A DNA stretch of 63,266 nucleotides, filler included, from Conidiobolus incongruus B7586 (Eukaryota), in assembly GCA_000697335.1 (NCBI GenBank). It is 4 parts of 4 records of this genome, joined end to end, with 100 filler letters (N's around TTAATTAATTAA, not from the genome) between each part and the next. Parts side by side here need not be neighbours in the genome. Positions count along the whole stretch, not along the records: positions 1 to 27,489 come from JNEM01006067.1; 3 more parts are not named here. One strand, 5' to 3'. The notes beneath the pieces were generated by a model that made no database searches, was not told the origin of the DNA, and saw only the letters and a list, made by a program, of their open reading frames with translations. The position numbers were made by a program, and so were the translations under genes. Every line of letters starts with the position of its first letter. Position 1 is the first letter of the stretch. Positions 2,427 through 57,532 of the stretch are shown here, in pieces.

Positions 2427-5195
2427 TCATTTGTATGGATTCGGCTTGGAAATTGATTTACTTTCTCCACGGTTTTTGCTACCACTTTTATTATTACCCG
2501 CAATTTGATCATTTCGGCGGTTGCTATCATTACCATTATTGCTACTATCGCCATTACTGATCTCAGATCCATCAGTACCGCCATTGACGTTATCTTCACT
2601 GTTGCTATCTGATCCATCATTACTATGATTGTTATTATCGCTTTTGATATTGTGAGAGCCATTATTGCCGCTGGTGCCATTATCTCCTCCATTAACGCTA
2701 GTATCATTATTATCATTACTCTGATTATCAGTTTCATCATCGTCATCATTGTCATTTCTACCATGACCATCATTGCGAGAACCATGATTGCCTTTGGCAT
2801 TCTTATTATTGGATTCCAATTCAATTTCGGTCTTAATGACTTTCTTACCATGAGTTTTTACATCGATATCAACAACATCGTCTCCTCTTAAAACTTTAGT
2901 ATCCAAATCGACAGCAGCTTTATCTCCATTTTTATTGTTCCCGGTCTCACCATGACCATTGGGTCCATCACTGTCAATGGCATCTTCGACAGTGTCAACC
3001 ACTTCCTCAATAACATCTTTATCTTTACCTTTACCTTTACCTTGAGATTTCTTCGATCTAAGATTTGGACCATGTCCTCCATCTTCTAGAAGATCCAGGT
3101 TGACATTGATATCTTGACTGTCTTTTCCACTTTGATGATGACCTGACCTATCTTTAGCTTGGTCATTTTGATCCTTCAATAAGTCCGAATCGGCAACTTC
3201 ATTGACAGTTTTCTCAACTTTTTTAACAGCATGTTGAACTTCTTTCTCAACTTCTTTCACGACTTCTCCCTGGTTGATACCACTAACCTTATGTTTGGTA
3301 TTTGAGGTCTTATCTTTATTGGAACCACTCAATTCGATACCAACCAATTTTTCATCTTTGTTATCCTTTTTGTTTCCATGATTGCTGTCTTTATCCAGCA
3401 CAGTGAAATCAACATCAATGTCAACTACATCTTTGCTTCCTTTAGATTGATGATTTCCAGCGTGTTGAGGAAGTACGTTAATTTCTACATCAACCGCATC
3501 GTCATCACTCCTACCAGAGCCATGTCCGTTATTTCGAGTTCTGTCAAGGACATTAACATCTAAGCCAACTGCATCATTGCCTCCTTTAGGAGGATGACCT
3601 CCAGAATGTTGAGAAAGCACATCAACACCAACATCGACTACTTCACTGCCTTTCTTTCCGGATTGATTTCTATTAGCGTGAGTCTTGTCGAGGACATTCA
3701 CACCAAGGTCAACTACTTCGCTGCCATCCTTGGGTTTGTGACTTCCACTGCGTTGAGAGAGCAAATTGACATCAGCGCCAACTACGTCATTTCCTTTCTT
3801 TCTAGATTGATTTCCATCAGTATGAGTCTTATCAAGGACATTCACACCAAGATCTACCACATCATCTCCGTCTTTCGATTTCTTGCTTCCATTGTGTTGA
3901 GAGAGTAAATTGACATCAGCGCCAACTACGTCATTTCCTTTCTTTCCAGATTGATTTCCATCATTATGAGTCTTATCAAGGACATTCACACCAAGATCAA
4001 CTACTTCATTGCCGTTCTTCGATTTCTGACTTCCACTGCGTTGAGAGAGTAAATTGACATCAGCACCAACTACGTCATTTCCTTTCTTTCTAGCTTGATT
4101 TCCATCAGTATGAGTCTTATCAAGGACATTCACACCAAGGTCAACTACTTCATCTCCATCCTTCGATTCCTTGCTTCCATTGTGTTGAGAGAGTAAATTG
4201 ACATCAGCACCAACTACGTCATTTCCTTTCTTTCCAGATTGATTTCCATCATTATGAGTCTTATCAAGGACATTCACACCAAGATCAACTACTTCATTGC
4301 CGTTCTTCGATTTCTGACTTCCACTGCGTTGAGAGAGTAAATTGACATCAGCACCAACTACGTCATTTCCTTTCTTTCTAGCTTGATTTCCATCAGTATG
4401 AGTCTTATCAAGGACATTCACACCAAGGTCAACTACTTCATCTCCATCCTTCGATTCCTTGCTTCCATTGTGTTGAGAGAGTAAATTGACATCAGCACCA
4501 ACTACGTCATTTCCTTTCTTTCCAGATTGATTTCCATCATTATGAGTCTTATCAAGGACATTCACACCAAGATCAACTACTTCACTGCCATCCTTGGATT
4601 TCTGACTTCCACTGCGTTGAGAGAGTAAATTGACATCAGCACCAACTACATCATTTCCTTTCTTTCCAGATTGATTTCCATCAGTATGAGTCTTGTCGAG
4701 GACATTCACACCAAGGTCAACTACTTCATCTCCATCCTTCGATTTCTTACTTCCATTGTGTTGAGAGAGTAAATTGACATCAGCACCAACTACGTCATTT
4801 CCTTTCTTTCTAGATTGATTTCCATCATTATGAGCCTTATCAAGGACATTCACACCAAGGCCTACCACATCATCTCCATCCTTCGATTTTCCTGACCCAG
4901 TGTGTTGGGAGAGTATATTAACATCGGTATCAACCACGTCCTTACCTGATTTTGGAGCCGATGCTTCATGACGAGTGTTAAGAATATTAACATCACCATC
5001 GACCACGTTGCTTCCATCTTCTTTCGAAGCAGCGCCCTTCGTTTGATGAGTCTTACTTAGAACCTTCACATCGGCATCTACTACATCGTTATCCTTGGCG
5101 ACCGCTCTCCGAACGATACCACCTATCTCGGAATGAGTAATAGGTTTAGCCATCAGTGACATGATCAAAATGCTAAAAATAGTTGCTGAGCGCAT
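2427..5195 (-). CDS. 922-aa secreted tandem-repeat protein; largest member of the clustered family
   Basis: Long intronless ORF with a hydrophobic signal peptide, IVRR pro-site, ~25 VVDxxVNVL-type motifs and an N/D/G/S-rich tail. No Cys. TATA-like TATATAAAG ~90 bp upstream. Confidence 0.92.
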   Translation of the reverse strand: MRSATIFSILIMSLMAKPITHSEIGGIVRRAVAKDNDVVDADVKVLSKTHQTKGAASKEDGSNVVDGDVNILNTRHEASAPKSGKDVVDTDVNILSQHTGSGKSKDGDDVVGLGVNVLDKAHNDGNQSRKKGNDVVGADVNLLSQHNGSKKSKDGDEVVDLGVNVLDKTHTDGNQSGKKGNDVVGADVNLLSQRSGSQKSKDGSEVVDLGVNVLDKTHNDGNQSGKKGNDVVGADVNLLSQHNGSKESKDGDEVVDLGVNVLDKTHTDGNQARKKGNDVVGADVNLLSQRSGSQKSKNGNEVVDLGVNVLDKTHNDGNQSGKKGNDVVGADVNLLSQHNGSKESKDGDEVVDLGVNVLDKTHTDGNQARKKGNDVVGADVNLLSQRSGSQKSKNGNEVVDLGVNVLDKTHNDGNQSGKKGNDVVGADVNLLSQHNGSKKSKDGDDVVDLGVNVLDKTHTDGNQSRKKGNDVVGADVNLLSQRSGSHKPKDGSEVVDLGVNVLDKTHANRNQSGKKGSEVVDVGVDVLSQHSGGHPPKGGNDAVGLDVNVLDRTRNNGHGSGRSDDDAVDVEINVLPQHAGNHQSKGSKDVVDIDVDFTVLDKDSNHGNKKDNKDEKLVGIELSGSNKDKTSNTKHKVSGINQGEVVKEVEKEVQHAVKKVEKTVNEVADSDLLKDQNDQAKDRSGHHQSGKDSQDINVNLDLLEDGGHGPNLRSKKSQGKGKGKDKDVIEEVVDTVEDAIDSDGPNGHGETGNNKNGDKAAVDLDTKVLRGDDVVDIDVKTHGKKVIKTEIELESNNKNAKGNHGSRNDGHGRNDNDDDDETDNQSNDNNDTSVNGGDNGTSGNNGSHNIKSDNNNHSNDGSDSNSEDNVNGGTDGSEISNGDSSNNGNDSNRRNDQIAGNNKSGSKNRGESKSISKPNPYK
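3650..4950 (-). repeat. Coding tandem repeat: 144-bp (48-aa) unit, 8 near-exact copies, with a 288-bp higher-order period
   Basis: AAATTGACATCAGC recurs at 3763, 3907, 4051, 4195, 4339, 4483, 4627 and 4771. Units alternate between SQHNGS and SQRSGS variants. Confidence 0.95.
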
Positions 5196-8032
5196 AATAC
5201 AATGAAAATAATTAATTGATTGAAATGAATTAATGTATTAATGTATAAATGTATGATACCGAATATTTGTCTCTTATCACTACTTTATATACATACTACC
5301 TCAGCATATTATATCATATCTTATCATTTTAATTCTACGGAAATTATTATAATTTCATCAAATTTATTAATATTAAAATTTATTAATTTTCCCAATTCAA
5401 TTCCAAATAAAATTGGTTAAAAATTTGCAAATCTTTTCATATATAATTTCCTAACGGATTCGGTATTAACGGAAATATTGGTAAATGGAATTATGGAAAG
5501 TTTTTTTTATTCTTAACAGCAATATTGAGATATTTGATAGTTGTCATGGTGTGATTAGTATTCATTTTTGAAATTAATTATTATTAATGTAGCGCTTAGA
5601 GATGACTAATGTGGTTCATTTTAAGATTATACTTATTAAAATATTTTTTATTTGCTTGAAATTTAAGCGTTTTAAAAATAAACCATCATTATTGTTAGCA
5701 AGACCAGTTTAATATTTGAGCTTCCTCAAAATACAACAATACATATAATTTATAATCTTTAATGCTTTATATTAAATAATTCAAAAATCAGTCATAATTC
5801 CAACTGGTTAGTTTATATTGATTCATTTTGTTTTATATAATATATTAAAGGGCTGTTATATCCAAATTAGTTAAATATATTTTCGTCTACTAAGCTATGG
5901 ATAAGTAGGATTAAAAAACTATCAGACATTTATCAATCCAATATTGAATAGATTAAATTTAATATTCAGACTCTTAAATTATTAGTATTGAATGATTACA
6001 GAGATATATTTCAAATGTAAGACATTTAATCTGATATTATATTCATTGATACACAATAAATTGAATAAAATATCTTCTTTTGATATTATCAAATTAATTT
6101 GTAGCCATAATGATAAAGGCGAACAATTAGAATATTCGTTGACAAAATAATATGAAAAATTTAATTCGTATTATTATCAATTTAATAATCATGCAATATA
6201 TTGATAATTGAAAATTGATGAAATTTTTGGGAAAATGATATGAGAAGTGAATGGAAGTGTGTATCAAGATATAGCATACTATGGTATGAATGAAAAATAT
6301 TCATAACATCTTGATAGAAAGTATGAATTCATTTTAGTTGTAAAAATTGATGATTGTAGTCCACATATATTTGCTTAATATCTCCATTATCATCCAAGTT
6401 ATTACATCTAGTAGATATTACTTCATTCTTCACTTTTAATTATTCTCAATCCATAGAAAGTTCGCTAGCCTCATCCAAAAATGCTCCAAAGTTTCCAATA
6501 CTTTTCAAAGATCCTTGGTCGTCATACAACGGGCCATCAACAGGCTTCAGTACGATTTCCAAAAGACTTTCAGTGGCTCCCGTCTCACAATTGATATCCA
6601 AAAGAGTATTGTTCAGAGTTTCTAAGAAGATTACTGCGGTGTGATCTATACTGTATCTATAGTGACTCATCTATGTGGTGATTGATGTGGGTCCTTAGGA
6701 CCGTCAGAATGCTTGATTAGATGTTTGTGTGGTTTCTTTTTTTTTTCATTTTTTTATATCTTATACATCGCTAAGGTTTATCACTTTTCTTAGATTGATT
6801 TTGGGCTTATTTGCAAGTGTTAGCAATCAATTTAGCAGTGGTAGAGCATATATTTCATTAGTAGCCATGACTAAATATTTCAATTATGAAAAACTATAAA
6901 AGGTTAACAGATATAAAGTTTTAATAGAATCAATATACAATATTATTTTGAGAATGAATTTTGGTATTGGTTAAATTTGAAATAGTTTTGACATGTGGTA
7001 AATTGATTTATATATTAGGGCTGAAATAGGTTGTTGATGTTGGTTTATTGATGATTGTCAAATTTATGTTTTTGAGCTTATTCTTGTGTTTTTAAATAAT
7101 ATGAACTATAAAAGACAAATACCAATCTTAAGCTGTAATGCAAATTAGGCTGGTTTATATTAAAATTTTATTTATCTCTATCAACATTGATATTATATTG
7201 AAAGTTTAGTTTAAGTGCAGTATATAATACAAAGTTTTATATATTAAATGATGTAGATATTTATTCCATACAATTGTTGATTAATATAAACCATCTTATT
7301 TTATATCTTCAAAATTAAAAATTTATATAAATTGGATCTATTTCACACCTAGAAACATTTTTATAATTCTTTTGACATTTTAATTAATATTAATCATTAA
7401 TATAATGACTAATGATAGAGAAAATAACAAAAATATATTACTCTGATTAGCAATAGCTGTTATAATTTCATGATGATTGATAAAATTAATAAATATGAAA
7501 ATCATAAATAAAATAATAGTAATGTTGTATAATTGTTTTATTACATTGAATCAACAATTATAATAATATTTTTTACAGAATTATGATTAAAACAAAAAAC
7601 TGCTATATATGCAATAAGTCAGATAATTATTTATATCATGATTTCAGTAGTAGGTGAATATTATGATATTCAAAACAAAATTTCAAATCCCAGTATAGAT
7701 AAGTTAATAAAAATATTTTCTAACTTATATTATTTGATGGTTGAGCTTTATCAACCTATATTGCTTTATTTCAATACATCGATTAGAATTTCAAATGGCC
7801 ATAAACAGTGCTATCTTTATATATGAAAACATAACACTAAAACAATCCCCAACAATATTTCATTATTTAAAATTCAAACAAAAACTAAATATTCTAAATA
7901 AACCACACTTTAAATCCCATCATATCTCAAAAAATTCAATCATCGATGATAATCAAATTGATGGTATTAAGAATATAAATTATCATTAATCATTTTGATG
8001 GCAATCAAGATGTTAAAAATTTAACATTATAA

Positions 8033-8347
8033 ATGATGCGATATATTATGTTATTCACATTTCTCATTTATGTCGGTGATGTGATTTCAATTACATCTGG
8101 TGAAAATATCTGAGAGATTCAAAGAGGTGGGCTGATTGAAGATTTTGAAATAGTTCAACTGGGTACGAATATTGGTGACAAGGATGAAGACATTGAAAGA
8201 GGTGAACGATTGCAAAAACAGGAAAATAAGGGTAAGGAGGAATCTAATCAAGACACTTTTTCTAGAGTTAATATGAGTGAGGCTTATGTGATTGATTTGT
8301 TAAGTGCCCTTTTAGGAAATTACCTTGACTCATTGTTAGCATTTTAG
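8033..8347 (+). pseudogene. Decayed small secreted protein, probable family member
   Basis: MMRYIMLFTFLIYVGDVISITSGENI*EIQRGGLIEDFEIVQLGTNIGDKDED...: signal-like start, one in-frame TGA at 8111, an IVQLGTNI strand motif, and TATAAA at ~7974. Confidence 0.5.
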
Positions 8348-9178
8348 TCATTTTATTATGAAAATATGATTAACTGATTTTATAATATAGTGGTATCAGT
8401 ATTTATATTAAGTAATAGAATTATGAGGGCTAAAATGCATTTATATATCAATTATATTGAGCTTTATATATCACACCTCAACAATTAAAAAAATCTTTTA
8501 AATTTGCAATATTAAAATCCAATCCTATATTGTATACTAATTATCAGTATTTTAATAAATTTAATAGATTCATTTAAAAATTATATTAGATATATAACTC
8601 AATTTTATTGATCAATTCTGTCATAAATGGTGATGTTTTAAATGAAATACAATAGATTTAAATGCTTTGTAATCATATTATTGATAAAAAATCCAAAAAT
8701 TGCATGTAATTGGGTTCAAAATATGTAATCATCTAATGACCTTTAATATTTAATTTTATATATTTGATCATGAATTTTTATTAGATCAAAATTTTTATAA
8801 TTATGTTGAATTCTATTTTGAAGTATACTATATAATTTTTTGTGATGCATATATTCCAAAAAAAGAATACTCAAAGCATCCATTCGGAGCATTAATATAG
8901 CACATCATTCCAAGCTTTCAATATTATTAAGGAACTTTCAAGTAACCAAAATTTCCGTTAAAAAATCGTATGGAAAAATTAAATTGATCATTACTTATAA
9001 AACTTTTGAATAAAAGATAATTTTTAACAAATATCAATAGGCGTAAAATATCTTGATTTTTGTATAATTTTTGGAGAGAGTATATAAATCACATCTCTTA
9101 TCCAAGTTAATACCATCAAATTATATTTATTTAATATTTGATATTGGTTAATTTTTAATTTTAATATAATTTTGAAGA

Positions 9179-9820
9179 ATGCGTACTGCCACTCTACTCG
9201 CAATTTGGATGACTTCGTTGGTTGCTACACCAGCTATCCCTTCCAGGCACCCAAAAGTGCGCAGAGCTGAGAATAAGGCCAACGATGTGGTCAAAGCCGA
9301 CGTTGATGCTTTAAGCCACAAGAAACATGAGGATGATGATTTTGATGTGGACGCCATTTTGGATGAACTTTTGGCAGATATTAAAATTGATGATGTAAAT
9401 GGAAAAGACGGTGCTGTAGACAATTTAGTAGAAACTGTTGAAGGGGCTACTAAACTCGATCTAATCAAGAGTAGCAAAGTCAAGCGTCCATCCAAAAAGA
9501 ATAAAAAAAAAGATGCATTGGATGTTGATGTCACTGCTCTCGATGATCCTGCTGTTGCTGAGCTTGAAGTTGACAATAATCGTAAAAAGCTTGCTGAGCT
9601 TGATGTGACTTTTGAAGAAAAAGCGGAGGAAGTGGAACAATCAGAACAATCCGAAGAGCCAGAAGAGCCAGAAGTGTCAGAAGTGTCAGAAGAGCCAGAA
9701 GAACCCGAGGAAGTAACAGAAGAAACACCTAAGCCACCTCATCGCTATAGTAAGAAGAGACCTTACGGTAAGCGCAGGTCACATAAAGCAAAAAATCGCA
9801 GAGGCCTCAGGTATTTTTAA
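9179..9820 (+). CDS. 213-aa secreted family member with acidic E/P linker and basic K/R tail
   Basis: Signal peptide MRTATLLAIWMTSLVATP. VRR-AENKANDVVKADVDALS aligns with VRR-AVAKDNDVVDADVKVLS of the 922-aa protein. TATATAAA at 9081 and AATAAA at ~9881. Confidence 0.9.
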   Translation: MRTATLLAIWMTSLVATPAIPSRHPKVRRAENKANDVVKADVDALSHKKHEDDDFDVDAILDELLADIKIDDVNGKDGAVDNLVETVEGATKLDLIKSSKVKRPSKKNKKKDALDVDVTALDDPAVAELEVDNNRKKLAELDVTFEEKAEEVEQSEQSEEPEEPEVSEVSEEPEEPEEVTEETPKPPHRYSKKRPYGKRRSHKAKNRRGLRYF

Positions 9821-11062
9821 TTCTCAACTGGATAGCTTCAATTTAATTTTTTTACCAAAAATACTGAATCTAATTTAATCAATAAACATATTATTTTTAC
9901 AATAGTTTTTTATTCAAATGAGCTTATATAATATTTTATACATCTCATTACCAATTAATGTGTTTCATTATAGATAAAATACTCATAACATTTATCTTAA
10001 GTACTATAATTTGTGAATTCCTATAATTAACAATTTCTAATGTATTGTATTAAAAATTATAAAATCTTAATTACATTATAAAAATGATCAGTTATGAATC
10101 AAATAACACTTTTGAATTCCTTAATGTGATATAATATCCAATGATTCCCATTTATAAATATATAATTAGAAAATTATTACTAAATGTTAAAATTCAATAT
10201 ACATCATTTAACCTAAATATTATATACTATTAACATCAAAATTTGAATATTCTTTAATAAATATTAGTATAGATATTGAATATTCATTGAATAGTTCAAT
10301 AAAACCATGAATAATTTAAACACAAGAATAGTTCTTAATCGGATAAAATATTGATTATTTTAATATCTGTTAATCATCAAAAATATATTATTAAAATTTA
10401 TTCAAACTTTCAAACAGCTTTATACCATTAAATTAATATTAAATTTAACCAATATTAAGATTTAAATTTGAAATGTGCTGAGGTTGTATATCATATTACT
10501 TATTAATGACTATGTAAAATAACAATAAAGTTATTATTTTAATATAAATATATTGAGTAATTATAGTATTGAGATTGATATTTTTTATATCGAATCGAAT
10601 TACTTAAAAAATGGGTAAAATATATATAAACGTAATATGATAGGTTGAGTACTTGCATTTACTATAAATATAATCATTAATTATATGGTTAGTATTATTA
10701 CGCTAAAATTAAACAAGATAAATTTCTAAATCTTATTATTTCATTTTTGATGTTTGATTTTGTAAATATACCATAATTTACTATCTATTAATAACTACAA
10801 AATATCACTGAGAAAATTATTTATATATTATATAATCTTTTTTTATTCAAAATGAAGTGGAATCATTTACAGAATGATGGTTTGATAAAATTTCAAATAA
10901 GAATTACCATTTTATAGAGATTATTTTAATAGATAGTAATATATTGTCAAATTTAATATTAAGATTCCAGAATAGATCAATCTATTATTTGATCTGAATT
11001 GATAAGAATAATAATATCCCTGAGATAGTGATTATACTAATCATTTTATTATTTCATTAAAT

Positions 11063-11848
11063 ATGCGTAATGTAATCTTCATTTCATTGTTAGTTGCATT
11101 TACTGGAGCTATTCAAGCAGCACATCATCATACCGGATTAGTTGGCTGTGAAGCATTGACTAAGGGAGACCTGGCAAATGTTAGTGTAAAGGTTGACAGG
11201 GACAGCAATCTGATCAAAGATGAAGATAGAAATAGCGGCTTGGATGTAGATAACCTTTTGAAGCTGAGTAACTTGAATGATGGTCTCATTGATCTCAATG
11301 ATTCGGAAAATAAAGATGATAGTATTGTCGAGTACTTAGCTTTGGATTTAAATGATTTTGATGATGTGATGGCCTTGTTAAATCTGAGTGAGAAGGATTA
11401 CCTTAACATTTTCCATTCGAGATCCGAAGCTATTCAGTATAGTAGTAACGAAAGTCAGTAAAAGAGTAGTGCGGAATGATTGAACATGAAAGCTGATGCT
11501 CTTGAAGGTATGATGTCGATGATATCAAGCTCGATAATGATTTTAGAGAGATTGCCGAAGTCAAAATTTCGCTTGGTAATGTTAATACTTAACAGGATTC
11601 AGGAGATGATAATGATGAGGGAGATAAAAAAGAAATCAAAACCTAAATCACTTTGATTACGTTGTAAGCCTCCAAAGAAAGGGCACTATTATAAACCCAA
11701 TTCTCATCACCAGTATAGCGAATATGGAAGGAGGAGTCCTAATGGTAGATATTTTTTACAACCTTCTTTTAGACCAGGACCAATGTATGAACCTGACTAC
11801 GGACGCCCGATTGGGTATTCTATGCCGTATCCACCAAGTTATCGTTAA
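11063..11848 (+). pseudogene. Disrupted secreted family member (132-aa ORF, then stops and frameshifts)
   Basis: Signal peptide present. Past the stop at 11461 the sequence still encodes LNMKADALEG / YDVDDIKLDNDFREIAEVKISLG (family module), an acidic then basic stretch, and a P/Y/G tail ending PYPPSYR* at 11848. The truncated 132-aa product could still be made. Confidence 0.7.
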
Positions 11849-13327
11849 TAATCATATCTTATATTCACATTTTAATTATCAAATAATTCATAACAATATA
11901 TATTGAAAGTTAGATGTATTATTTCTAATCTACAGATTTTTAACTTTTCTAATATTTGATACTTCCTTGATTGCTATAATAATTGATAACCCTAACTTTT
12001 TGATTAATTTTTTGTTGAGGTATTATAAATAACGGTATTAAATATTTCAAAAAGAATTCTACCAACAAATTCATTAATTTATATTGATATATTTCAGGAA
12101 ATATCTTAAAATTTTAAATATGATATTTAAATTTGTTAGGTTTTTATATTTGTCGCTTAATTTATGATTTATGAAGTTAATATACATCAATACTAAATCT
12201 CTAACTAATATAAACACATATTTCTTATTGATAATTGTTTTGTATTTTTGAAACATAGAAATAAATTGTTTTCTGGCAAAAAAATCAATAATGTATTATG
12301 TAATTCGTGAATTGAGTTCAGATAGATATTACAATCCTTGTTTTCAAAATCATTTTTATCCCAATAAATAATTTAATTTCTGAATACATTGAATAATATC
12401 TTGCTAGTATTAAAAAATTATAGTATACATAATTTTGTCATAACTTCGTCCAATTAAGCTATATTTTAAATAATATTTTATATTAATTACGATTATACAA
12501 ATTAATGAGATATACATTATTTCAGATTTATTAAGATAGATCTTTAGAAAAAACTAAATAATTTACTATATTTAAAACTTAACATCCCATATATTTTTAT
12601 TAATTTTATTTTAGTGCTTGGTTTATTATATTGCGGTTCTACCGATTGCTAGTAGAAGGTTAATAATAGATAAAGAAGCGGCTTGTTTATGGTCTGTTTG
12701 GTAGTTTAGGTTAGAGTGTTTTATTGGGTTTGTTAAGGGTTTTATGGACTTCGCAAAAGACCAAAGGTGATGGTGCTAATGTATCTTTTATAAAATAATT
12801 GTCGGCTGTAGGTAATGTAAAGTAGTATATTGGGTTGCTAGAAGAATGAGATCTTGGAGCGGTGTGATGAGTCTTTTGGTGGTAAGACTCCATAAGGTAA
12901 TAGATCGCGAGATGAAGTTGGTGGAGTGAGTGACCATTTATATAGCCACAATATATATTGGAATAAAATCAATGTATGTTTAAATGAAAATTATTTGAAA
13001 ATATGATTTAATGGGGTTACTTCATGTTCGAAATATACTTAATAACAAAATATTAAGAAAATATATTCAGGCTTCATTTTGAGAAGTCAATAAAATGAAT
13101 TCAATTACTGAATATCTGATATAAAACTAAATAGATTTTTTAATATATTCTTAACTGCAACTGTGATTAGTGCGAATTAGAGTTACCAATTCAGTTTAAT
13201 TCGTTTTATAGTAAGTTTCAAATCTGCAGTAGAGTTACAAATTAGATTTCAACATAATCGAAGTCTTTTAAAGCTAAATTAAGCTAATATCAAATTATTC
13301 AATGTTAATTATTTTTGATACTTAGTT

Positions 13328-13750
13328 ATCCGTGGAATTACTTTATCTCCTCTTCTAGTTGCCATTTTTTGCAAGCTCTTCCAATGAGTATCAGAGGTCC
13401 TTAATGTGGAGAGATGGTGACAATAAAGTACATACATTGGAGTTACTCCATTTTTTGGATGTTGATCCCAATAATTATGAAATTGATGACATTGAAGAAA
13501 AGGTTGAAAAATCTCATGAATCCAAGGAACATCATAAGCATCATAATGATCTATTGGAAGGAGCTTTCAATGTTTTGTTATTACACATAGTGAAAACCAC
13601 CAAGGTAAAGGTGATAAAGGAATTGAATTAAATTCGCAAATTGAAAATGATAGCGATTTCGTGAATGTCTAGTTAAATGAAATAATAAAAAGGTTCTCAA
13701 ACTTAAAATTGATGATGATGAATCGGGAAATAAGGAGCTTAGTACAATTA
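13328..13750 (+). pseudogene. Disrupted secreted family member
   Basis: IRGITLSPLLVAIF (ATC in place of ATG) ... SLMWR, then after a frameshift GDKGIELNSQIENDSDFVNV*LNE/NNKKVLKLKIDDD, which matches KDKGIELRTDVEDEDDILDIGLDDNEEEVVDV of downstream paralogues. Confidence 0.7.
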
Positions 13751-14978
13751 AAAATAATTATTGCATCAATTGGGTACTCAAAATAGATGGTTCAAGTCTA
13801 AACTTAGACCTGAACCGCATTTCTAATCTGAATCTGAAAGATCAGTTTCCAAAATACCATGCACTTTAATGACTTTTCAATTTTCAATCCTATTATTAAG
13901 ATTACTTATTTTTTCTCGGATTATAAGGCCATTTTAATAATTTTACAATTTTATTGACCATTCAGCATTTAAATGGTAATAAATTATTTTCTATATTTCA
14001 TACAATTTTTGTGATATAAATTAATCCAATACATTTCCTTTTAAATATCTAATATTTATATTAACAATAATTGAATACAAAAGTTAATGCTCTAATTTAA
14101 TATTGATAATAATCAAAATTAATGGAGACTTTATAAATTTCGATTATATGACTGAATCTGCAAAAGGTATTCTTTATTATTAATAAATCGTTGTATCCAA
14201 TTCAATAAAATTAAATTATATTTGAGAAAAAATTCAATTACATTCAGATAACACCTGATATTTTGTACATGATAATAAAAATGATATAAAAGTTCTTTAA
14301 TAATAGCTATTATTATTTTAGTTTGAATAAATATACACCCTATATTAGAATAAAAATGAAATAAAATCTAAATCATAATTTCATCCAATTTAGACATTGA
14401 AAATACTCTTTATTGAATCATTGATATACCATTTTCAATTGATTGAAGTTTCATCTATAACCCCAGGTTATTTGAGTATTTCAATATTTAATCAATAAAA
14501 ATGATCAAACACCCAAAAAATTAATTATAGATAAACTATTATAATTTTACTATTTTTCTATTTTGATTATTAGGAAGAATCAATTCAGTTCCAATTTATT
14601 AACCAATTTCTATATTGAGTCAATTATCCACATGATAATAAATATTAAAGATTAGAAGATATCGAGATAAAAAATCAGTATATTTCAGTATTATTTTAAA
14701 ATCGGTAATAAAATTTTAAATGATTAATTATATTATATAATATTATATGCAATTTCCCCAAAGATAATTGTTTAATATTATCACTAATATTGAACCATTC
14801 AATATTATTAAATGTTCATAAATTTGTCATATTTGAATATCATAAACATAGATCCTCCAATCAATTAATTGATATCGTATAAACAATTCAATTGGATTCT
14901 TGAGATATATAAGCAGATTTTAAGTACCGTAAAAAATTAAAATATTGCAATTCAATCTATATATATATATATTTAATA

Positions 14979-15749
14979 ATGCACACTACTACATTATTCA
15001 GTTTACTCCTAACTAGTTTAATTGCTACTCCCATTACTCCTTCGGAACATTCATTGATACGTCGATTAGACCTATTGAATAGGTTAATCGAAGTAGATGC
15101 TTTGGATGCCCTTGATATTGGAGGCATTACTGGTCGTGAATCCCGTCACCCTCGCGAAAAAGAAGATGGAATCAATTTGGATGCTAGGATCGAAGAGGAT
15201 GAAGATTTGGCCGAGCTTGAATTAGATGATGAAGCTAATGATATTGCTGGCATTCAGATCTTGGAGGAAGAGATACCTGAAGAGCCCGCTGAAGAGCCAG
15301 AAGAGCCTGAGGAATCTGAACAACTCGAAGAGTCTGAAGAGCCTATGTATGAAGATGATGATGAATATAATGATGAATATGATGATGAATATGATGGCAA
15401 ATACGGTCGCTATCCTGGAGGATATAACGACCGCTATGATGGAGGCAGATATCGTAGCTATGACGTTGGATACAGTGGTGATTACGGCAATGGTTACTAT
15501 GATAACTATAATGGTGGTTATAATGGAGATTATGATAATAGAATGTATCCAGGATATTTCAAAGATTATAATGGTGGTTATCGTAACGGCTATAGCGGTG
15601 GATATGGTAATGGTTATAACGGTGGATATGGTAAGAGCTATGATGGAGGTTATGATAATGGCTATAGCCGAGGCTATAGTGACAGCAATGGTTACAATGG
15701 AGGATATGATCGATACAATGGTGATTATGGTCCATATGGTGAATATTAG
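14979..15749 (+). CDS. 256-aa secreted family member with Tyr/Gly/Asn/Asp-rich tail
   Basis: Signal MHTTTLFSLLLTSLIATP, SLIRR pro-site, family module, EEPEE linker and (G/N)GY repeats. TATA-like element at ~14906. Confidence 0.9.
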   Translation: MHTTTLFSLLLTSLIATPITPSEHSLIRRLDLLNRLIEVDALDALDIGGITGRESRHPREKEDGINLDARIEEDEDLAELELDDEANDIAGIQILEEEIPEEPAEEPEEPEESEQLEESEEPMYEDDDEYNDEYDDEYDGKYGRYPGGYNDRYDGGRYRSYDVGYSGDYGNGYYDNYNGGYNGDYDNRMYPGYFKDYNGGYRNGYSGGYGNGYNGGYGKSYDGGYDNGYSRGYSDSNGYNGGYDRYNGDYGPYGEY

Positions 15750-16669
15750 TACTATCCAACTCCATCTAATCGGTTTATCAACAAAGACTTTGATTATACT
15801 TCAATCATCCAACTTAGATATTTTATATCTTTAAATATTCATTGAATTTCTCTTTTAATTACTTTTATAATAAATAGCATAATTATTCACTTCTCAGAAT
15901 TAAATCATGTAAAACCAATTGCCTTCTTTTTTTGAAAAGAAAAAACTATCATTAAAATCATTTTTAGGCCTTATATATATATATATATATATTAATAATT
16001 TACTTGGATAATTTGTTTATTAATTTTATTAAAATCTTTAAATTAATAAATATTCCAATTGACATTTATTTTTGAATCAATATGTTATTAATGATAACTA
16101 TATTCATATAATTTTTTGATATTAATGAGTATAAAAAATTCACTATCCTTACAATATTAGATTTTGTGGTATAATTTATCTGATTTATATAAGCTTTATA
16201 TTAATCAAATTTATATCCCTTTATGAATATCAATTAAATATAGAGTTGTTCTTTATTCGATCTGATTTTTGGATTAGGTTTTTAGTAATTGAGTTAATAA
16301 ACTGAGTTGAATTCAATGTTAATTATTGTGTTGGAATCATAAATAATATTAAAAAAAAAATAACATTAAATTCTAAAAATATTTATAATTCGATATCTTA
16401 CAGCACAATAAACAATATTGATATAAACACTACAGAATTGAAAAAGAGTAATTTGGTGACTTAAAAATTGACAATTTTTATATATGTGGAGTTGTTAGCA
16501 AAACAATAGATTTGATCTAAAAAAATAAATCTCCAAATATATAATAATTATATAATCAATGATTGATGATTTGATAACAAAATAAGTCATTTGAATTTTT
16601 ATTAATATTGATCGACAAAGTTAGGATTACAAATTATCAACATTGAAATGGTTGCATTTTTATATATAA

Positions 16670-19600
16670 ATCTGATGTGAGGACTAAAGTCATCATATTA
16701 TTTACTCATTGCTTTAATTCATCTTATATTTATTGTTTAACTATATGCATTCAACTATTTTGTTCGTTCTATTAGTTTCTAGTTTAATTGCTACCCCCCT
16801 TCCTGCTCCAAGTCATGCTTTGACTCGTCGTATCGATGCTTTGAAAGGATTGGACTTGGGAGATTTAGGTCTCATAAATGATATCTTGAAACTTGGTGAA
16901 AAACATCCTAAAAAGCAGCATCCTTCAAAAGATAAAGGAATTGAGTTGCGAACTGATGTTGAAGATGAAGATGATATATTAGATATTGGCCTGGATGATA
17001 ACGAAGAGGAAGTTGTTGATGTAGCTGTTTTGGAAGAAGAGCCTGAGCAGCTGGATGAACCCGAAGAATCTGAAGAATCTAAAGAGTCTGAAGATTCCGA
17101 AGAATATGAAAGTGAAGATTATGAAGATTATGAAGATTATGAAGGCGAGTACGATGAAGATGTATACGATGGCCAGAGGTATGGAAAGAAATCCAATGGC
17201 TATAAAGGAGACTATGGCAATGATGGTTATGATGGGAGATATGACTATCATTATAATGATGGACATGGTGGCTATAATCGCGAATACGATAGCTATGATG
17301 GAGAGTATGATGAGTATTACGGCGACTATGACGGCTATGATGGTGATTATCGCCAATACAATTTATACTGAATTTATGAAATCCAATCTGATTTAGAACA
17401 TTCACTAATGTATGTATATAACAAATAACATCAACGTATCATAGTTCAATGCATAGCTCATTCAATATATATTATTTTTCATTTTAGAATCACTAATTGA
17501 ATAAAAATCATTAAATTTGAAATTCATTTAATTATCCTTTTATTGTTGGTCAATTTCAAGTTTCATAATTTATAAAATGATATACATCAAATGAAATCAA
17601 AATGGTATAATGAATTTATTTACAGCTACATCAACATCACTTGATTTGATTTGATACAACTCTTATCCTATGTTCGATGTTTAGTTAGCATCGATAAAAT
17701 ATAAATGAAATCTTATTACAAATAATGGGCGTCAAATTATACCTTGAAATTATTGAAAACATAAATGTATTTCTAAAAATTTATTATTACCGATATAATC
17801 ATATTATTACTATTTTGGATATTTTTGAATCTACTTATATTAAGTATTTATACATTTTTATTCTCATTTTTGAATCAATTACTTTAAAATTTTTAATTAG
17901 AGCTAATTAAATGAATATATGAACTTTGGCTTATTATATTTTGAAATTTTCAAGTGTATGTTATATTTATTAGTTTTATTAGATAAATTTGAGATTTTTC
18001 AGTCAGTTGAGCTCCTGTTATAACAAAATTAGGACAGGGCCACAGAAATTTTTGAATTTAATGTTTTTGCATTTATATGAGTATTAGAAATTATAGTCAT
18101 TTTATTAATGAGGTAAAATTAGCAAATTTTTTAATATATAAACTATACTGTAATTTATAATCAATACCATGATAAAAAGTAAAATAATCAAGTTTTTAAG
18201 AAATACTACTCATATTTATTTGTAGAATTGTTGTAGGACAGTTTCTTTTGAAATAATGAAAGTTGAACCACATCTATTTGTATATCAAAGATTTTTATTC
18301 CAATTCTTTTAAAGGTAATATTTTATCAAATTTAATTGAATTTATTTTTGTATTTTATTAACTTATTTTTGATGGATTGAAAGCATATATTTCAACTATC
18401 CTTATATTTTAACTTTTTTATAATGATAGGTTTTCAAATGATAGTTATTATAACATTGAATTTCTCAATGCAATTAGGTTTGATTCAATATGAAACTTCT
18501 AATAAAGATATTACTTTTTATAAAGTAATTTTTTACTGTACTTAATCTTATCAATTAAATTTTATAATGAATAATTAATAATTGTAATACCTTTATATTC
18601 ATTATAAAAAGTCACTGTAAACTGGTATAACAATCTCTATTATGATTATTATATATTGGGTACATAATAATCCAATATCAGAATAAATAATCAAAAAATA
18701 CCAATTATATTTCACTAATTCATCCAATTCAAAATAGAGTAGATCCTTTATAGAATGAGAAATATCAAAACATTTGTCATTATTATCTCACTAATACTGC
18801 TCCTTAATAAGTAGTAAATAGTTTCAAATAAATGTTGTATATGCTTGATATAAGTAAAATTTTATTCTCTCTTGATCCTAGATAATAAACTTAAATCAAC
18901 ATATTGATGAATATATAAGAATATAGTGTATGAATATTGAAAATAGTTTATTTATCAAATAGAATATAATATTTATTGGATTTGATTAAACTTACTAAAC
19001 ATAAATTTTATATTACATTGACCAACTTCATAAACTAACTAATGTGACAATTAAAATGAAAAATTATAAATTGATGATCTCTATTGAGATTATCATTTAA
19101 TAACAAGGATAGCATTTATTGTTTTGATAGTATATTTATAGTAAATATCGATATAGAAATTAAGTGATTATGAAAGATAATTAATGTGCTATTGTTCTTA
19201 TTATAATCTTTCATGATTGGTGAAAATTTATACACAATCAACTATATACAGCTTGAACATTGAATTATGTAAATAAATGATCGTGATTTAAATTGGGATC
19301 AACATTGATAAAGGAAATTCAATTTATAAATTGTAAACATCTCAATAAATAAAGGTTATATATAAATGAGATCTGATGTAAGGACTAAAGTCATCATATT
19401 ATTTATTCATTGCTTTAATTCATCTTATATTTATTGTTTAAATATATGCATTCAACTACTTTGTTCGTTCTATTAGTTTCTAGTTTAATTGCTACCCCCC
19501 TTCCTGCTCCAAGTCATGCTTTGACTCGTCGTATCGATGCTTTGAAAGGATTGGACTTGGGAGATTTAGGTCTCATAAATGATATCTTGAAACTTGGTGA

Positions 19601-19862
19601 AAAACATCCTAAAAAGCAGCATCCTTCAAAAGATAAAGGAATTGAGTTGCGAACTGATGTTGAAGATGAAGATGATATATTAGATATTGGCCTGGATGAT
19701 AACGAAGAGGAAGTTGTTGATGTAGCTGTTTTGGAAGAAGAGCCTGAGCAGCTGGATGAACCCGAAGAATCTGAAGAATCTAAAGAGTCTGAAGATTCCG
19801 AAGAATATGAAAGTGAAGATTATGAAGATTATGAAGATTATGAAGGCGAGTACGATGAAGAT
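16670..19862 (+). repeat. ~490-bp near-identical direct repeat (16670-17162 and 19371-19862)
   Basis: Direct comparison at offset 2701 shows only a handful of mismatches. Confidence 0.93.
16745..17371 (+). CDS. 208-aa secreted family member with Tyr/Asp/Gly-rich tail
   Basis: First ATG at 16745 (the ORF track starts at an upstream TTG). Signal peptide, ALTRR, module and YD/YG tail present. TATATATAAA at 16661. Confidence 0.9.
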   Translation: MHSTILFVLLVSSLIATPLPAPSHALTRRIDALKGLDLGDLGLINDILKLGEKHPKKQHPSKDKGIELRTDVEDEDDILDIGLDDNEEEVVDVAVLEEEPEQLDEPEESEESKESEDSEEYESEDYEDYEDYEGEYDEDVYDGQRYGKKSNGYKGDYGNDGYDGRYDYHYNDGHGGYNREYDSYDGEYDEYYGDYDGYDGDYRQYNLY

Positions 19863-20024
19863 GAATACGATGGTCATAGATATGGAAAGAAACCCGATGG
19901 TTATAAACGAGGCTATGACAGTGATGAATATAACCGAGGATATGATTACCGATACAACAACAATTATGACGGATATGATTATGAATATGACGGAGATAGT
20001 GGTGATTATGAAGACTACAATTGA
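19446..20024 (+). CDS. 192-aa secreted family member, close paralogue of 16745-17371
   Basis: First ATG at 19446. The first ~139 codons are almost identical to the previous gene; the tail has diverged. Confidence 0.9.
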   Translation: MHSTTLFVLLVSSLIATPLPAPSHALTRRIDALKGLDLGDLGLINDILKLGEKHPKKQHPSKDKGIELRTDVEDEDDILDIGLDDNEEEVVDVAVLEEEPEQLDEPEESEESKESEDSEEYESEDYEDYEDYEGEYDEDEYDGHRYGKKPDGYKRGYDSDEYNRGYDYRYNNNYDGYDYEYDGDSGDYEDYN

Positions 20025-22599
20025 GAATATGCCCCTTAAAGTAGATATTATTATAATCAAACTCATATTAATAATGATTTAGAGGATATATTTTTTTACC
20101 ATTTCATCCAATCGTGTTTAAAAATAATAAATATTATTTTACGTTTAAAATAGCTTTATATCTTATAATCATAACAAAACTTTCTTAATATGATATATCA
20201 CTGATTTCGATTTATACTAATCATTAGTGGATTTAAAATTGCTAAAAAATTCAATTGTCATATTTTCAAATAACTTAAAATTTCTGAAGATATAATAATA
20301 TTATAACAAGACAGGAACCTCTAATTTCATCAAGTATCCTTATTAAATCAACTCAATATAATGATCATTTTTCCCTCGCATACAGATTCGCTTACTCTTT
20401 CTTAGATTTGCTATTCAGCGAAGCCACCACAGTAACTTCTAAACCACTTTACCCGACATACATTATAAAACCGGAATTTGGATGATTCAAATCAAGATCA
20501 GCCTTATAAGGGCCCTCTCCCCTAGTTGACAAAATCAATAAAATTCCCTTTTACCCATCTTATAGCCAAATATCCCGGACCACCCCTCTGTACTAATTCT
20601 GATCAAGACAATGCTTTCCCAAGTAGTGCCAATATCATGATTTCATTAAAAAAACAAATTTAAAATTAATAATTGTTTAATAAATTGAATGAAATTTAAA
20701 AATTGTGATGATTTCAATTTGAATGTTATATTCAATTCCAAGTTTTCATTAATAAGATTATAATATAACATTTATATATATCATGGAGTCAATACTTTAT
20801 AATGGTCAGGTGAAACGATTCAAATATACATTTTTCTAATTTATTTATTATATATATCAAGTAACAAATGATAATATAGTTTTTTTTCGAAATTAATAAA
20901 ATGATTTTGATATTTTGGATTTAATCCACCTACAGTTTGTTTTGATGATGTTATATTTCAGGTTATGATGCTCAATTATTTCTTATATCCCCTCCATATA
21001 TCTTTATACTTTAATATATTATTATGAAATTTATCTGATATTGTCACTTAATGTTGTATAAATAATTTTATTTAATATTTTCTTCCGTGTACTTTTTATT
21101 AAGTGAATTTAAATATTTTGATATTTAAGCTATAGATTCTTTACAAATACTATTCAAAAAAACTATAATAATTTTCTAATTATTAAATTGCGATGAATTG
21201 ATCATTAGGTATTGAAGAATATAATAGATATAAAACGTTCATCTTAATATTTTGTCTAGACATATTCCTAATAAATGTAACCTAAATTTGTAAATTTAAA
21301 AAGATATTTAATTCAAACTCACAGATAATGGAATTTATGATAATTTATAGAGTGAATTGAATATACCATTTTTTTACTTCAAGGGACTTGAACTTACTGA
21401 TAATCGTTTTATAGTCACTAAAATTTCATTTTTATTATAAACATATTGATGCGTAATACAACTGATTAATTGTTTATATTTATTATAATGTTAATATTAA
21501 TCATATAATTATCGGTTTAATTCTCATTCTTTTTATCATTTGTAAAACTCATCTTTAGCATATTCGAACCCTTACTAAATTTTTCAAAGGTTAACATTGA
21601 TAATTTCAGAAAATATTAAAAATTAAATATTTTTGTTTATATTCTGTTGCTTTATCAATTAAACTGTACCAACTATTTATTAAACGGTTATATTATCAAT
21701 TATCTCTCAATTTTATCCAACTTCCAAAAATTCTGGACAGTTAGGTTTTAATGATTTTAGCTTTCATTAACATAGATTATTCAATTCAAATATTGCATTT
21801 TACACTTATTCATAATAAAATAATATTGTTTAAACTAATATAAGAGCCTTTGAGTTAATCTTTATATTTCGTCGCTTTGAACTTTTGTTTTTTTAATTGT
21901 GTCAATTATATTTGATCAATTTTTGGTTCTAATTGAGTATTTAGTTAAATAGCGAGAATATTCAAATGTTAATTGACCGGTGAGGTCTACTTTCGCGTTC
22001 AACCAGTAAACAATTTTTATTATTTCAAGGGTTTATATAATTTCTAACCAAATTACCAGTTAAACAATCGCTAGTTATGAATTACCTTGGTTTTTAAAAC
22101 GAGATGTTGAAGCGTGAAGATTGTGTAATTATTAATAAAATAATTCAAATATCATAATTGATTTTTTGAGTAATATTTTTTGGGATTATAATCAAATTAA
22201 TATATATCTCTAAAACTTAAACTTATTCCTTTGTATTACACAGCTTTAAATCTTTCAATAGCTCTTTATCAAAATTTTCGATTAATCTGAAAATCATCGA
22301 ATATTTCATAATCAACCAAAATTAGTCATTATTAATTTCTATTTGAAAGATCAAGCTTTTCTAAAATTTCAAAAATGATTATCAAAGCGAAAGTTTTAAG
22401 GATTAATCACTGAATATTATTATGGTAATAATACTAAATTCAAAAAATATAATATAAAATATATTCTATTTGATTTAAGGCTCTTATTTTTTATTTTTGG
22501 GATTTATTATTATTAATGATATTACCCTTATTCAGATATCTTTTGACGTTTCGAAATTAGCATGTCCTAAATATCATTTAATAAATTTGTTTGACAAAC

Positions 22600-26391: not shown

Positions 26392-27489
26392 CTTAAAGTC
26401 TATATATTAAAAAAATAAATAAATAAAATATTGTTGGATTTAGATTAATTAATAAAAATTAAAATATTCCAAATATTATTATAATTTTATAATTTAGAAA
26501 TTTATGATTTTATGTTTTGATTAGTTTAGTTTAATTTAATTTTTTTATTTGTTATAATAAAAATTAATTTCCTATTTATCAAATATTTAATTTTGTTTAT
26601 GGGATTAATCTGAATTCTGAATAGTCCCATAAAAATATTATTTTATCATTTTATTAAAAACACCTATCTGGTCACAAAATGTATATATACACATCATTGA
26701 TTAAATTAAAATGGAAAATCAATTAATATAGACCAAATATTAAAATGAGATATTAATTTATATCATTTAGATCTAAATTAATATTTAACAAACGAACTCA
26801 TTCGATTAATAAAAGCATTTTAAATTTTTATATAAATTAGATTATTATTCAAAAATTTAAAAATAATTCAAATAATAATAAAGGTTTTTAAATTTAAATC
26901 TTTTATTAATTAATTAAATTAGATAATAATTGCAATATATTTAGTTTTATTAGCACTTTTTAGTGGTGTAGACTGAACAATAGCTGCTTATTTAATGATT
27001 CTAAAGTTAACTAAATAATTATAAAAAATCATTTTAAAAATAAAATTTATTAATTATTATTAGTATAAAAATTAAATAATAAGAAAATTTTAAAATCTAA
27101 ATTAAATATAGTTATTAATACATGAATTATTAAATTAATACACATGATAAAGTTAATACTCTGTTTTATTATTATTAACCCTTTACTATATTTTTAACAA
27201 GCTTCTAATCTTTAAAAAATAATGTTTTTTATTTAAAACTGAAATTAGGCATTTTACAAATTAATAAAATTTATTTATTGGAATTTTTTTAAAAATATAT
27301 TTTTTTATTATATAAAACAATTATAGTTATATAAATTTTAATCTTATGAATATATTACAAAGTAACTTTTTTTGAATTTTTTATATAGAAAATTTTTTAT
27401 AATTTTTAGCTTAATTTATTTTATAATTATTATTTAAAATTATAATTATTTATAATTTATAATAATAATATCAATTAAAAATTATTTTT

Positions 27490-56877: not shown

Positions 56878-57532
56878 TTACTTTGTAATTTAAATAATGG
56901 GAATTTTTTGCGATTGAAAAAAAATAAACATTTTAATATATACAAAGTAAAAATAAATATATAATATAAAATTAATAATTTCCTTTATTTCTAATAACTT
57001 TTTGCCATACTTTTGGCAAAGATCTAACACCTAAAAAACAGTTCTTTTTATTAAGGACTGAAATTTGATGTTTCACAAACCAATTAAATTTTCCTGCAGA
57101 AATTTTCTTTCCTGCAAGCTGGTTTTTTAATTGCCTAAAACAATTATAATCACATGGGTTATAATCTGGGGAATATACTAGATGTGGTAGTTCTTTCCAG
57201 TTATTTTTAATTAGAAAGTTTTTTACAACTTTAGATTTATGTATTTTACAATTATCATGCAAAATAATAGGTCTTCTCAAATTATATTGAGAATACCAAT
57301 TAGAAATAGTTTTATTTAAAAAAAAATATAAAGTTTATTATTAATGGATTTTCCTTTAGGAACTAAATAAGAATAGCATATGCCATTATAATCTATTGCT
57401 ACAATTAACATTCACTTATCAATAAAGTGTTTATTTAAAGGAATTTGTGGAGGGGGTTGATTTGGTTTAATCCAACACCTTGATTTATGTTTTGGCAAAG
57501 GATTATACAAAGGAATCCAAGATTCATCAATT
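56878..57532 (-). mobile_element. Mariner (DD34D) element, 3' half, truncated by the gap; transposase pseudogene
   Basis: IDESW ... K*MLIVAIDYNG ... HDNCKIH ... YSPDYNPCDY, with 34 residues between the 2nd and 3rd Asp. TA target precedes the TIR. One CGA>TGA stop and one homopolymer frameshift. Confidence 0.93.

What the first reader, a model, noticed from the sequence alone, without database searches (positions are those of the whole stretch)
2814..19738. Hidden ~37-aa three-strand module shared by seven cluster members
Seen, near gap-free manual alignment: GDKAAVDLDTKVLRGDDVVDIDVKTHGKKVIKTEIEL (~2814-2927); KKDALDVDVTALDDPAVAELEVDNNRKKLAELDVTF (~9506-9613); LNMKADALEG/YDVDDIKLDNDFREIAEVKISL (~11480-11575); DKGIELNSQIENDSDFVNV*LNE/NNKKVLKLKID (~13613-13715); EDGINLDARIEEDEDLAELELDDEANDIAGIQIL (~15162-15263); DKGIELRTDVEDEDDILDIGLDDNEEEVVDVAVL (twice). 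The hydrophobic periodicity is conserved while identity is low, and the module always sits just before the low-complexity region. Inference: an undescribed beta-meander that mediates co-assembly.
Basis: partly seen in the sequence, partly recalled or inferred. Interest (0 to 1): 0.7.

Follow-up and report, generated by a model that had tools for sequence, protein, structure and literature searches.

The report
Conidiobolus secreted beta-strand repeat protein family
A soil fungus of the Conidiobolus type carries a cluster of seven related genes, two of them broken, for likely secreted, cysteine-free proteins that share a short strand motif, repeated 24 times in one of them, and these proteins may self-assemble into a spore or hyphal surface coat, which is untested.

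Summary
The module is real. All seven strings are at the stated places. Each of six held-out copies is recovered by a profile of the other five, above all 300 window shuffles. No Pfam family matches the module. Corrections: the seven sites are five intact genes (two near-identical) and two broken ones. They are paralogs: their signal/pro region is better conserved than the module. The module is not a stand-alone novelty: its first two strands match a strand motif that gene G1 repeats 24 times. The only outside relative found is a partial Conidiobolus coronatus hypothetical protein. AlphaFold draws the module as three strands (pLDDT 51-56) and the G1 array as a parallel beta-solenoid (pLDDT 56; top match curli CsgA, Z 9.8, rmsd 9.1); both are weak. 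Best reading: a lineage-restricted family of secreted surface structural proteins that likely assemble through amphipathic strands and display acidic, Tyr/Gly or basic tails. Co-assembly is inferred only. G1 also meets the computational KEP rule. Moderate interest: a testable candidate for the Conidiobolus rodlet or mucilage layer.

The parts
2427..5195 (-). G1: intact 922-aa ORF; predicted signal peptide, RR at 29-30, 24-strand repeat array, module, N/D/G/S-rich tail; no Cys
3345..5093 (-). G1 repeat array: 24 hydrophobic strands, mostly spaced 23/25 aa (48-aa unit, 144-bp period, 9.1 copies), KK every 48 aa at nine sites; predicted parallel beta-solenoid (low confidence)
2814..2927 (-). Module in G1 (residues about 757-794); predicted three strands
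9179..9820 (+). G2: intact 213-aa ORF; predicted signal peptide, RR at 28-29, one G1-type strand right after it, module, acidic Glu/Pro linker, basic tail (net +13)
9506..9613 (+). Module in G2
11063..11848 (+). G3: broken gene (stops and frame changes); different N-terminus without the RR site; Pro/Tyr/Gly tail in another frame. A 50-nt GT-AG stretch at 11458-11507 could be an intron, but its GC (0.40) is coding-like
11480..11575 (+). Module remnant in G3, split by a frame change
13328..13869 (+). G4: broken gene (no start codon in the signal-like stretch, several frame changes, a stop inside the module); ends approximate
13613..13715 (+). Module remnant in G4, with a stop and a frame change
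14979..15749 (+). G5: intact 256-aa ORF; predicted signal peptide, RR, acidic module (net -12), acidic linker, Tyr/Gly tail (27% Y, 28% G)
15162..15263 (+). Module in G5
16745..17371 (+). G6: intact 208-aa ORF; same plan as G5; recent duplicate of G7 (96.8% over 566 bp)
16931..17032 (+). Module in G6
19446..20024 (+). G7: intact 192-aa ORF; one base differs from G6 in the first 418 coding bases, tails then diverge
19632..19733 (+). Module in G7, identical to G6

Best explanation
The cluster encodes a paralogous family of cysteine-free, predicted secreted proteins of a Conidiobolus-like fungus, which likely serve as structural surface (spore coat or mucilage) proteins and would assemble through a short amphipathic beta-strand motif. 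Shown: paralogy, gene status, the strand motif repeated 24 times in G1 and matched by module strands 1-2 of G1 and strand 1 of G2, the tail compositions. Predicted: signal peptide removal and cleavage at the conserved RR; three strands in the module; a parallel beta-solenoid in the G1 array. Inferred: a 37-residue one-sided sheet cannot bury its hydrophobic face alone, so it would pack on other copies or on the open ends of the G1 solenoid in cross-beta fashion, leaving the acidic, Tyr/Gly-rich and basic tails outside for charge pairing, metal binding, adhesion or tyrosine cross-linking.
For: All 5 intact ORFs have a hydrophobic N-terminus, RR at 28-30, no Cys and no later hydrophobic segment, so no membrane or GPI anchor is evident. 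Module significance. A matrix built only from 13 distinct G1 array strands finds module strands 1 and 2 of G1 (16.2 and 16.5 bits) and two strands in G2 (17.9, 13.0), each p=0.003 against 300 shuffles, and G6 weakly (p=0.043); 0 of 6 control proteins reach p<0.05. The C. coronatus relative keeps signal, RR and two strands (45% over 77 residues), and one of its strands matches module positions 1-13 (6.9 bits; 2 and 3 of 500 shuffles). The array model is a regular 48-residue beta repeat; its structural neighbours are mostly parallel beta-helix or solenoid proteins by my reading of the titles, led by E. coli CsgA fibril (Z 9.8, rmsd 9.1, 110 aligned) and a SufBD-type chain (Z 8.2, rmsd 3.1, 147 aligned). 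Context from papers: C. obscurus conidia have a rodlet layer under mucilage (PMC3364958, passage citing Latge 1986); strict hydrophobins were found in 1 of 6 Zoopagomycota genomes (10.1101/2022.08.19.504535, passages).
Against: Both models are low confidence (mean pLDDT 44.8 and 55.7; pTM 0.20 and 0.48); the array alignment is nine shifted slices of one gene, and the tool warns that Z under about 13 for repeats may be only a common arrangement; Foldseek gave no match at E<=0.001. The array matrix finds nothing significant in G3, G4 or G5 (p 0.59, 0.15, 0.52), so strand kinship is shown for only part of the family. G5, G6 and G7 modules carry net -12 in 35 residues, which opposes in-register stacking unless cations or basic partners screen it. 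The module is less conserved than the signal/pro region and is decayed in 2 of 7 genes. The C. coronatus protein shows no whole module, though it is annotated as partial. A second, diverged copy of the G1 5' end shows 17 listed differences spread 5/6/6 over codon positions, no sign of purifying selection there.
Confidence: 0.45

Rival explanations
1. G1 is a KEX2-processed repeat precursor cut at KK into 48-residue two-strand peptides, like Ustilago Rep1 repellents; the short genes are relatives that lost the array, and the module is a leftover rather than the assembly core.
For: KK recurs exactly every 48 residues at nine sites (130 to 514), giving six whole 48-mers; this meets the published computational rules (PMC7329392 passage; PMC6339444 section 24). 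Rep1 peptides are 34-53 residues and form surface amyloid (PMC3133707 passages).
Against: KK is the weaker Kex2 site (PMC6339444 passage); the array has no KR or RR. KK also lies inside the G1 and G2 modules and twice mid-unit in the array, which fits polar turns as well. The C. coronatus relative has no such periodic sites and is not among the 19 C. coronatus KEPs listed. G2 and G5-G7 have no repeats between dibasic sites.
Confidence: 0.2
2. The module is half of a small monomeric alpha/beta domain: a short amphipathic helix 15-25 residues upstream covers the hydrophobic face of the meander, so no co-assembly is needed, and the proteins act as acidic, metal- or surface-binding polymers.
For: AlphaFold places a helix at G1 727-741 just before the module; the matching stretches of G2 and G6 align to it. 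The weak Foldseek rows for that model are largely cystatin-like helix-plus-meander folds (E 0.19 or worse).
Against: pTM 0.20, no confident packing; the G5 stretch at that place is Gly-rich and not helix-like; the spacer length varies among members; the G1 array strands have no such helix.
Confidence: 0.15
3. A fast-turnover family of secreted host- or microbe-interaction proteins under birth and death; the module is only residual homology among paralogs, with no special role.
For: 2 of 7 genes broken and confirmed so in read contigs of the same sample; a recent duplication with fast tail divergence; a second diverged G1-G2 block elsewhere in the same DNA; low module identity; most similarity is the hydrophobic pattern; one relative among 1.84 billion representatives.
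Against: The module keeps its length and register almost without gaps while neighbouring segments change freely, and leave-one-out scores exceed pattern-keeping shuffles, which suggests a structural constraint.
Confidence: 0.2

Closest known systems
Conidiobolus coronatus CONCODRAFT_6358 (KXN70985.1), hypothetical protein, partial
   Same: Signal/pro region, RR and the first two G1-type strands; 45% identity over 77 residues with G1.
   Different: 136 residues, annotated partial; no long array and no whole module detected; no function on record, and no paper in the library holds 'CONCODRAFT'.
Ustilago maydis Rep1 repellents / KEX2-processed repeat proteins (KEPs)
   Same: Signal peptide plus tandem repeats of similar size between dibasic sites (G1 only); a precedent for surface amyloid that does a hydrophobin-like job (PMC3133707 passages).
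   Different: G1 uses only KK/RKK in the array; no Rep1-like sequence surfaced; the five short members are not repeat precursors and carry acidic and Tyr/Gly or basic tails.
Bacterial functional amyloids curli CsgA and Pseudomonas FapC
   Same: Imperfect strand repeats with a conserved Asn column (my reading); top structural neighbour of the array model (CsgA Z 9.8; FapC rank 2 at E 0.043, TM 0.08); paralogous major and minor subunits in one locus.
   Different: No curli or Fap Pfam match; 6% identity and rmsd 9.1 to CsgA; eukaryotic secretion; a 48-residue unit with long polar loops; FapC has three imperfect repeats in a Greek-key fold (PMC12392863 abstract).
Lepidopteran chorion proteins
   Same: Many paralogs sharing a gap-free central amyloid domain of fixed length with variable flanks (PMC13252134 abstract and passages): the nearest architectural analogy for G2 and G5-G7.
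   Different: Their core is 51 residues and Gly-rich; this module is about 37 residues and Asp/Glu-rich; analogy only, no homology tested beyond the Pfam scans.
Fungal hydrophobins
   Same: Small secreted proteins of the spore and hyphal surface (proposed role only).
   Different: Hydrophobins are defined by eight Cys (PMC3364958 passage); the five intact proteins have none.

Membership tests
KEP (KEX2-processed repeat protein), G1 only | N-terminal signal peptide, no transmembrane segment | tested here: met
   Hydropathy only, no SignalP: maximum 15-residue Kyte-Doolittle mean 1.75 at the N-terminus, 0.55 later
KEP (KEX2-processed repeat protein), G1 only | At least three similar repeats of 8-100 residues between KR/RR/KK/RK sites, over 15% of the length | tested here: met
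   Six whole 48-mers between KK sites, 288 of 922 residues; rules
KEP (KEX2-processed repeat protein), G1 only | Actual cleavage into peptides in vivo | not testable with these tools
   Needs peptidomics; KK is the weaker site
KEP, short members G2 and G5-G7 | At least three similar repeats between dibasic sites | tested here: not met
   G5 has 1 dibasic site, G6 3, G7 4, G2 13 but without repeated units between them
Hydrophobin | Eight conserved Cys | tested here: not met
   0 Cys in 5 of 5 intact proteins
Curli CsgA / FapC functional amyloid | Family sequence profile | tested here: not met
   No such Pfam or NCBIfam match at E<=1
Curli CsgA / FapC functional amyloid | Parallel beta-solenoid or cross-beta fold | tested here: inconclusive
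   Model pLDDT 55.7; CsgA Z 9.8, rmsd 9.1, 110 aligned; Foldseek E>0.001
Curli CsgA / FapC functional amyloid | Forms ThT-positive, detergent-resistant fibrils | not testable with these tools
   Bench test
   0 families for 6 of 6 module rows at E<=10. The TFIIB hit on whole G1 (31.8 bits, above cut-off) has 0 significant stretches and lies in the repeat array: read as a repeat-summing artefact
GPI-anchored fungal adhesin | C-terminal hydrophobic GPI signal | tested here: not met
   Last 30 residues hydrophilic in 5 of 5 (maximum mean -1.55 or lower)

The most novel reading that the evidence does not exclude
This family is the cysteine-free functional amyloid of Conidiobolus conidia: G1 is a curli-like solenoid scaffold, the short paralogs dock on it through the three-strand module as chorion paralogs share one core, and their acidic, Tyr/Gly and basic tails make the rodlet or sticky mucilage layer of the shot spore. 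It would be an independently evolved replacement for hydrophobins in an early-diverging fungal lineage.
Probability: 0.2. Interest if true: 0.75.

Novelty: new variant of a known kind. Interest (0 to 1): 0.4.

Why it matters
Entomophthoralean conidia stick to hosts through a mucous coat (PMC9026835 passage), C. obscurus conidia have a rodlet layer (PMC3364958), the adhesive of E. muscae is described as undetermined (PMC8588673 passage), and hydrophobins were found in only 1 of 6 Zoopagomycota genomes surveyed. The proteins behind these layers were not named in what I read. This cluster offers short, easily expressed candidates and a defined strand motif, so the question becomes testable. If the proteins do not assemble, the finding is an ordinary lineage-specific cluster of secreted low-complexity paralogs.

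Tried and rejected
Complex prediction of four copies of the 44-residue G2 module gave no verdict (ipSAE 0.01 and 0.02, mark 0.32; alignment not used, controls not folded): no evidence either way. No RNA holder was listed for 14900-20100, so expression is open. Word-based homolog searches: G6 1-100, 0 of 66 candidates; G1 30-800, 0 of 7989; alignment A5, only P0001 among 7994; each covered a limited length range. Atlas: one unnamed cluster at 0.76 for G2, below the usable level; nothing for G1 30-330. Metagenome scan with G1 1-110: 327 pattern matches, 0 confirmed. None of 8 window proteins is in the 15-billion collection by exact sequence; no whole genome is held. Runs X5 and X6 gave next to no cover, which proves nothing. 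Foldseek on both models: nothing at E<=0.001. TFIIB repeat hit rejected as an artefact. Assembly error as the cause of the G3/G4 breaks: single contigs cover 9271-11850 and 12893-15964 with 0 other letters and 0 gaps in runs X1-X3 (one sample, possibly the source of the window, so not independent). Intron rescue of G3: 11458-11507 is 50 nt with GT, a branch-like site and AG, but GC 0.40 against 0.15-0.26 for intron candidates with branch sites in three housekeeping genes; judged unlikely, not excluded; if real, strand 1 of the G3 module would be intronic. Literature: no paper on this family surfaced in searches (listings read); supplements of the bioRxiv hydrophobin survey are closed, so I could not see whether a Conidiobolus was among its six Zoopagomycota genomes. 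Earlier scan notes held nothing related.
Full report
Setting. The window is AT-rich eukaryotic DNA (about 28% GC) with housekeeping genes further on (ribosomal L6, PLP enzyme, NSUN2-like, rhodanese). No whole genome is held. The one outside relative of the cluster is a Conidiobolus coronatus protein, so I infer a Conidiobolus-like fungus; lineage was not tested on housekeeping genes.

Anatomy. The finding spans seven genes. G1 (5195-2427, minus, 922 aa), G2 (9179-9820, 213 aa), G5 (14979-15749, 256 aa), G6 (16745-17371, 208 aa) and G7 (19446-20024, 192 aa) are open frames; G3 (11063-11848) and G4 (about 13328-13869) carry several stops and frame changes. Read contigs of the same sample cover both broken genes with no difference from the window, so the breaks are unlikely to be assembly slips. 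All five intact proteins start with a hydrophobic stretch, have RR at 28-30, lack Cys and lack any later hydrophobic segment. After the module, G2 and G5-G7 have an acidic linker (51-62% D+E) and then a basic tail (G2, net +13) or a Tyr/Gly tail (25-28% Y); G1 has an N/D/G/S tail. G6 and G7 are a recent duplicate.

Is the module real? Pairwise, 9 of 10 informative pairs beat plain shuffles and 2 of 10 beat pattern-keeping shuffles (11 of 21 pairs dropped, 6 for a mis-framed G4 and 5 for the G7 duplicate), so most pairwise signal is the hydrophobic pattern. Leave-one-out profiles recover the module in 6 of 6 held-out proteins at 11.5-17.1 bits, above 300 of 300 window shuffles and at least 298 of 300 pattern-keeping shuffles; 7 control proteins reach at most 3.7 bits. 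A profile from only the four distinct intact modules, run over all six frames, next finds a G1 array strand and the G4 and G3 remnants (6.4-6.7 bits) against 2.1 for the best site outside the cluster. No Pfam model matches the module.

What it is. First, homology among paralogs: the signal/pro region is more identical than the module in 6 of 6 pairs. Second, the module is tied to a smaller unit. G1 holds 24 strands, mostly at 23/25-residue spacing (144-bp period, 9.1 copies). A matrix from these strands alone picks out module strands 1 and 2 of G1 and, in G2, a strand after the RR and module strand 1 (p=0.003 each), G6 weakly (p=0.043), and G3, G4, G5 and 6 controls not at all. In the module the strands are spaced 13 residues apart with short turns; in the array they are joined by long polar loops. 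The C. coronatus protein keeps signal, RR and two array-type strands, one of which matches module strand 1, but shows no whole module; it is annotated as partial.

Structure. G1 466-796 folded alone gives three strands at 763-770, 773-782 and 785-794 (pLDDT 51-56) after a helix at 727-741, with mean pLDDT 44.8 and pTM 0.20; Foldseek finds nothing significant. Five array units folded with shifted copies of themselves give a regular beta repeat (pLDDT 55.7, pTM 0.48). Its neighbours are mostly parallel solenoids by my reading of the titles, led by CsgA (Z 9.8, rmsd 9.1, 110 aligned) and SufBD-type chains (Z 8.2, rmsd 3.1, 147 aligned), with no Foldseek match at E<=0.001. This supports a fold class weakly and no family.

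How it likely works. Secretion and removal of a short propeptide at RR are predicted from sequence and from general knowledge of kexin processing. Each strand has one hydrophobic and one charged face; a three-strand sheet of 37 residues needs a partner surface. The simplest partner is another copy or the G1 solenoid, giving a cross-beta coat with tails outside; opposite charges (G2 tail against G5-G7) or cations could screen the acidic modules, and Tyr/Gly tails could cross-link or adhere. These last steps are inference (confidence 0.45). Rivals: G1 is cut at KK into 48-residue repellent-like peptides (0.2; it meets the computational KEP rules); the upstream helix closes a small monomeric domain (0.15); or the module is residual homology in a fast-turnover family (0.2; two broken genes, a second diverged G1-G2 block in the same DNA).

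Comparison with the known. Not a hydrophobin (no Cys), not GPI-anchored, no curli or Fap profile; G1 is a KEP by computation only. It would work like Rep1 repellents, curli or chorion proteins without detectable kinship to them. Papers seen: PMC3133707 (passages), PMC6339444 (abstract, passages, section 24, one supplement row), PMC7329392 (passages, supplement table part 59), PMC9026835 (passages), PMC8588673 (passages), PMC13252134 (abstract, passages), PMC12392863 (abstract), PMC3364958 (passages; Latge 1986 seen only as cited there), 10.1101/2022.08.19.504535 (passages; supplements closed).

Verdict. The family has one known relative among 1.84 billion representatives and no description in the searches run. 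It is best filed as a new variant of secreted beta-repeat surface proteins, interest 0.40, with a 0.2 chance of being the cysteine-free amyloid coat of Conidiobolus conidia.

Noticed in passing
window 5088-9665: Read contigs show a second, diverged copy of the G1 5' end, the intergenic stretch and G2 elsewhere in the same DNA (for example 41 differences in 222 bases at 6444-6665; an in-frame 3-base loss at 9623): an old segmental duplication or a second subgenome.
   Followed up: partly
window 6449-6670 (-): A 74-codon ORF with no Pfam match is kept without gaps in the diverged copy while its flanks are full of gaps; it may be a small real gene or exon.
   Followed up: no
window 8012-8344 (+): A signal-like start followed by a stop and a 77-codon charged ORF; the diverged copy has six one-base losses here. 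Possibly another decayed secreted-protein gene.
   Followed up: no
window 12658-12922: High-copy repeat between G3 and G4: summed contig depth about ten times the flanks, many variant contigs and loose ends; a small mobile element is likely.
   Followed up: no
window 16706-17162 and 11858-11868: The contig shared by G6 and G7 has about 2.5-3 times flanking depth, and a variant contig overlaps the G3 tail end, hinting at further family copies outside the window (depth is not a copy number).
   Followed up: no
window 31214-34654 and 37944-41384 (+): Two tandem, intronless, about 1150-aa genes with a signal-like start, PD40/DPPIV-type propeller and amidohydrolase domains (Pfam scan of the first); the architecture recalls bacterial proteins (recalled, not tested).
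   Followed up: no
window 56975-57334 (-): A 120-codon ORF that reads like a mariner-type transposase fragment (recalled likeness; not scanned).
   Followed up: no
window 27132-27489 and 41504-41866: A dispersed AT-rich repeat, 73% identical over 369 bases, with nearby inverted arms.
   Followed up: no
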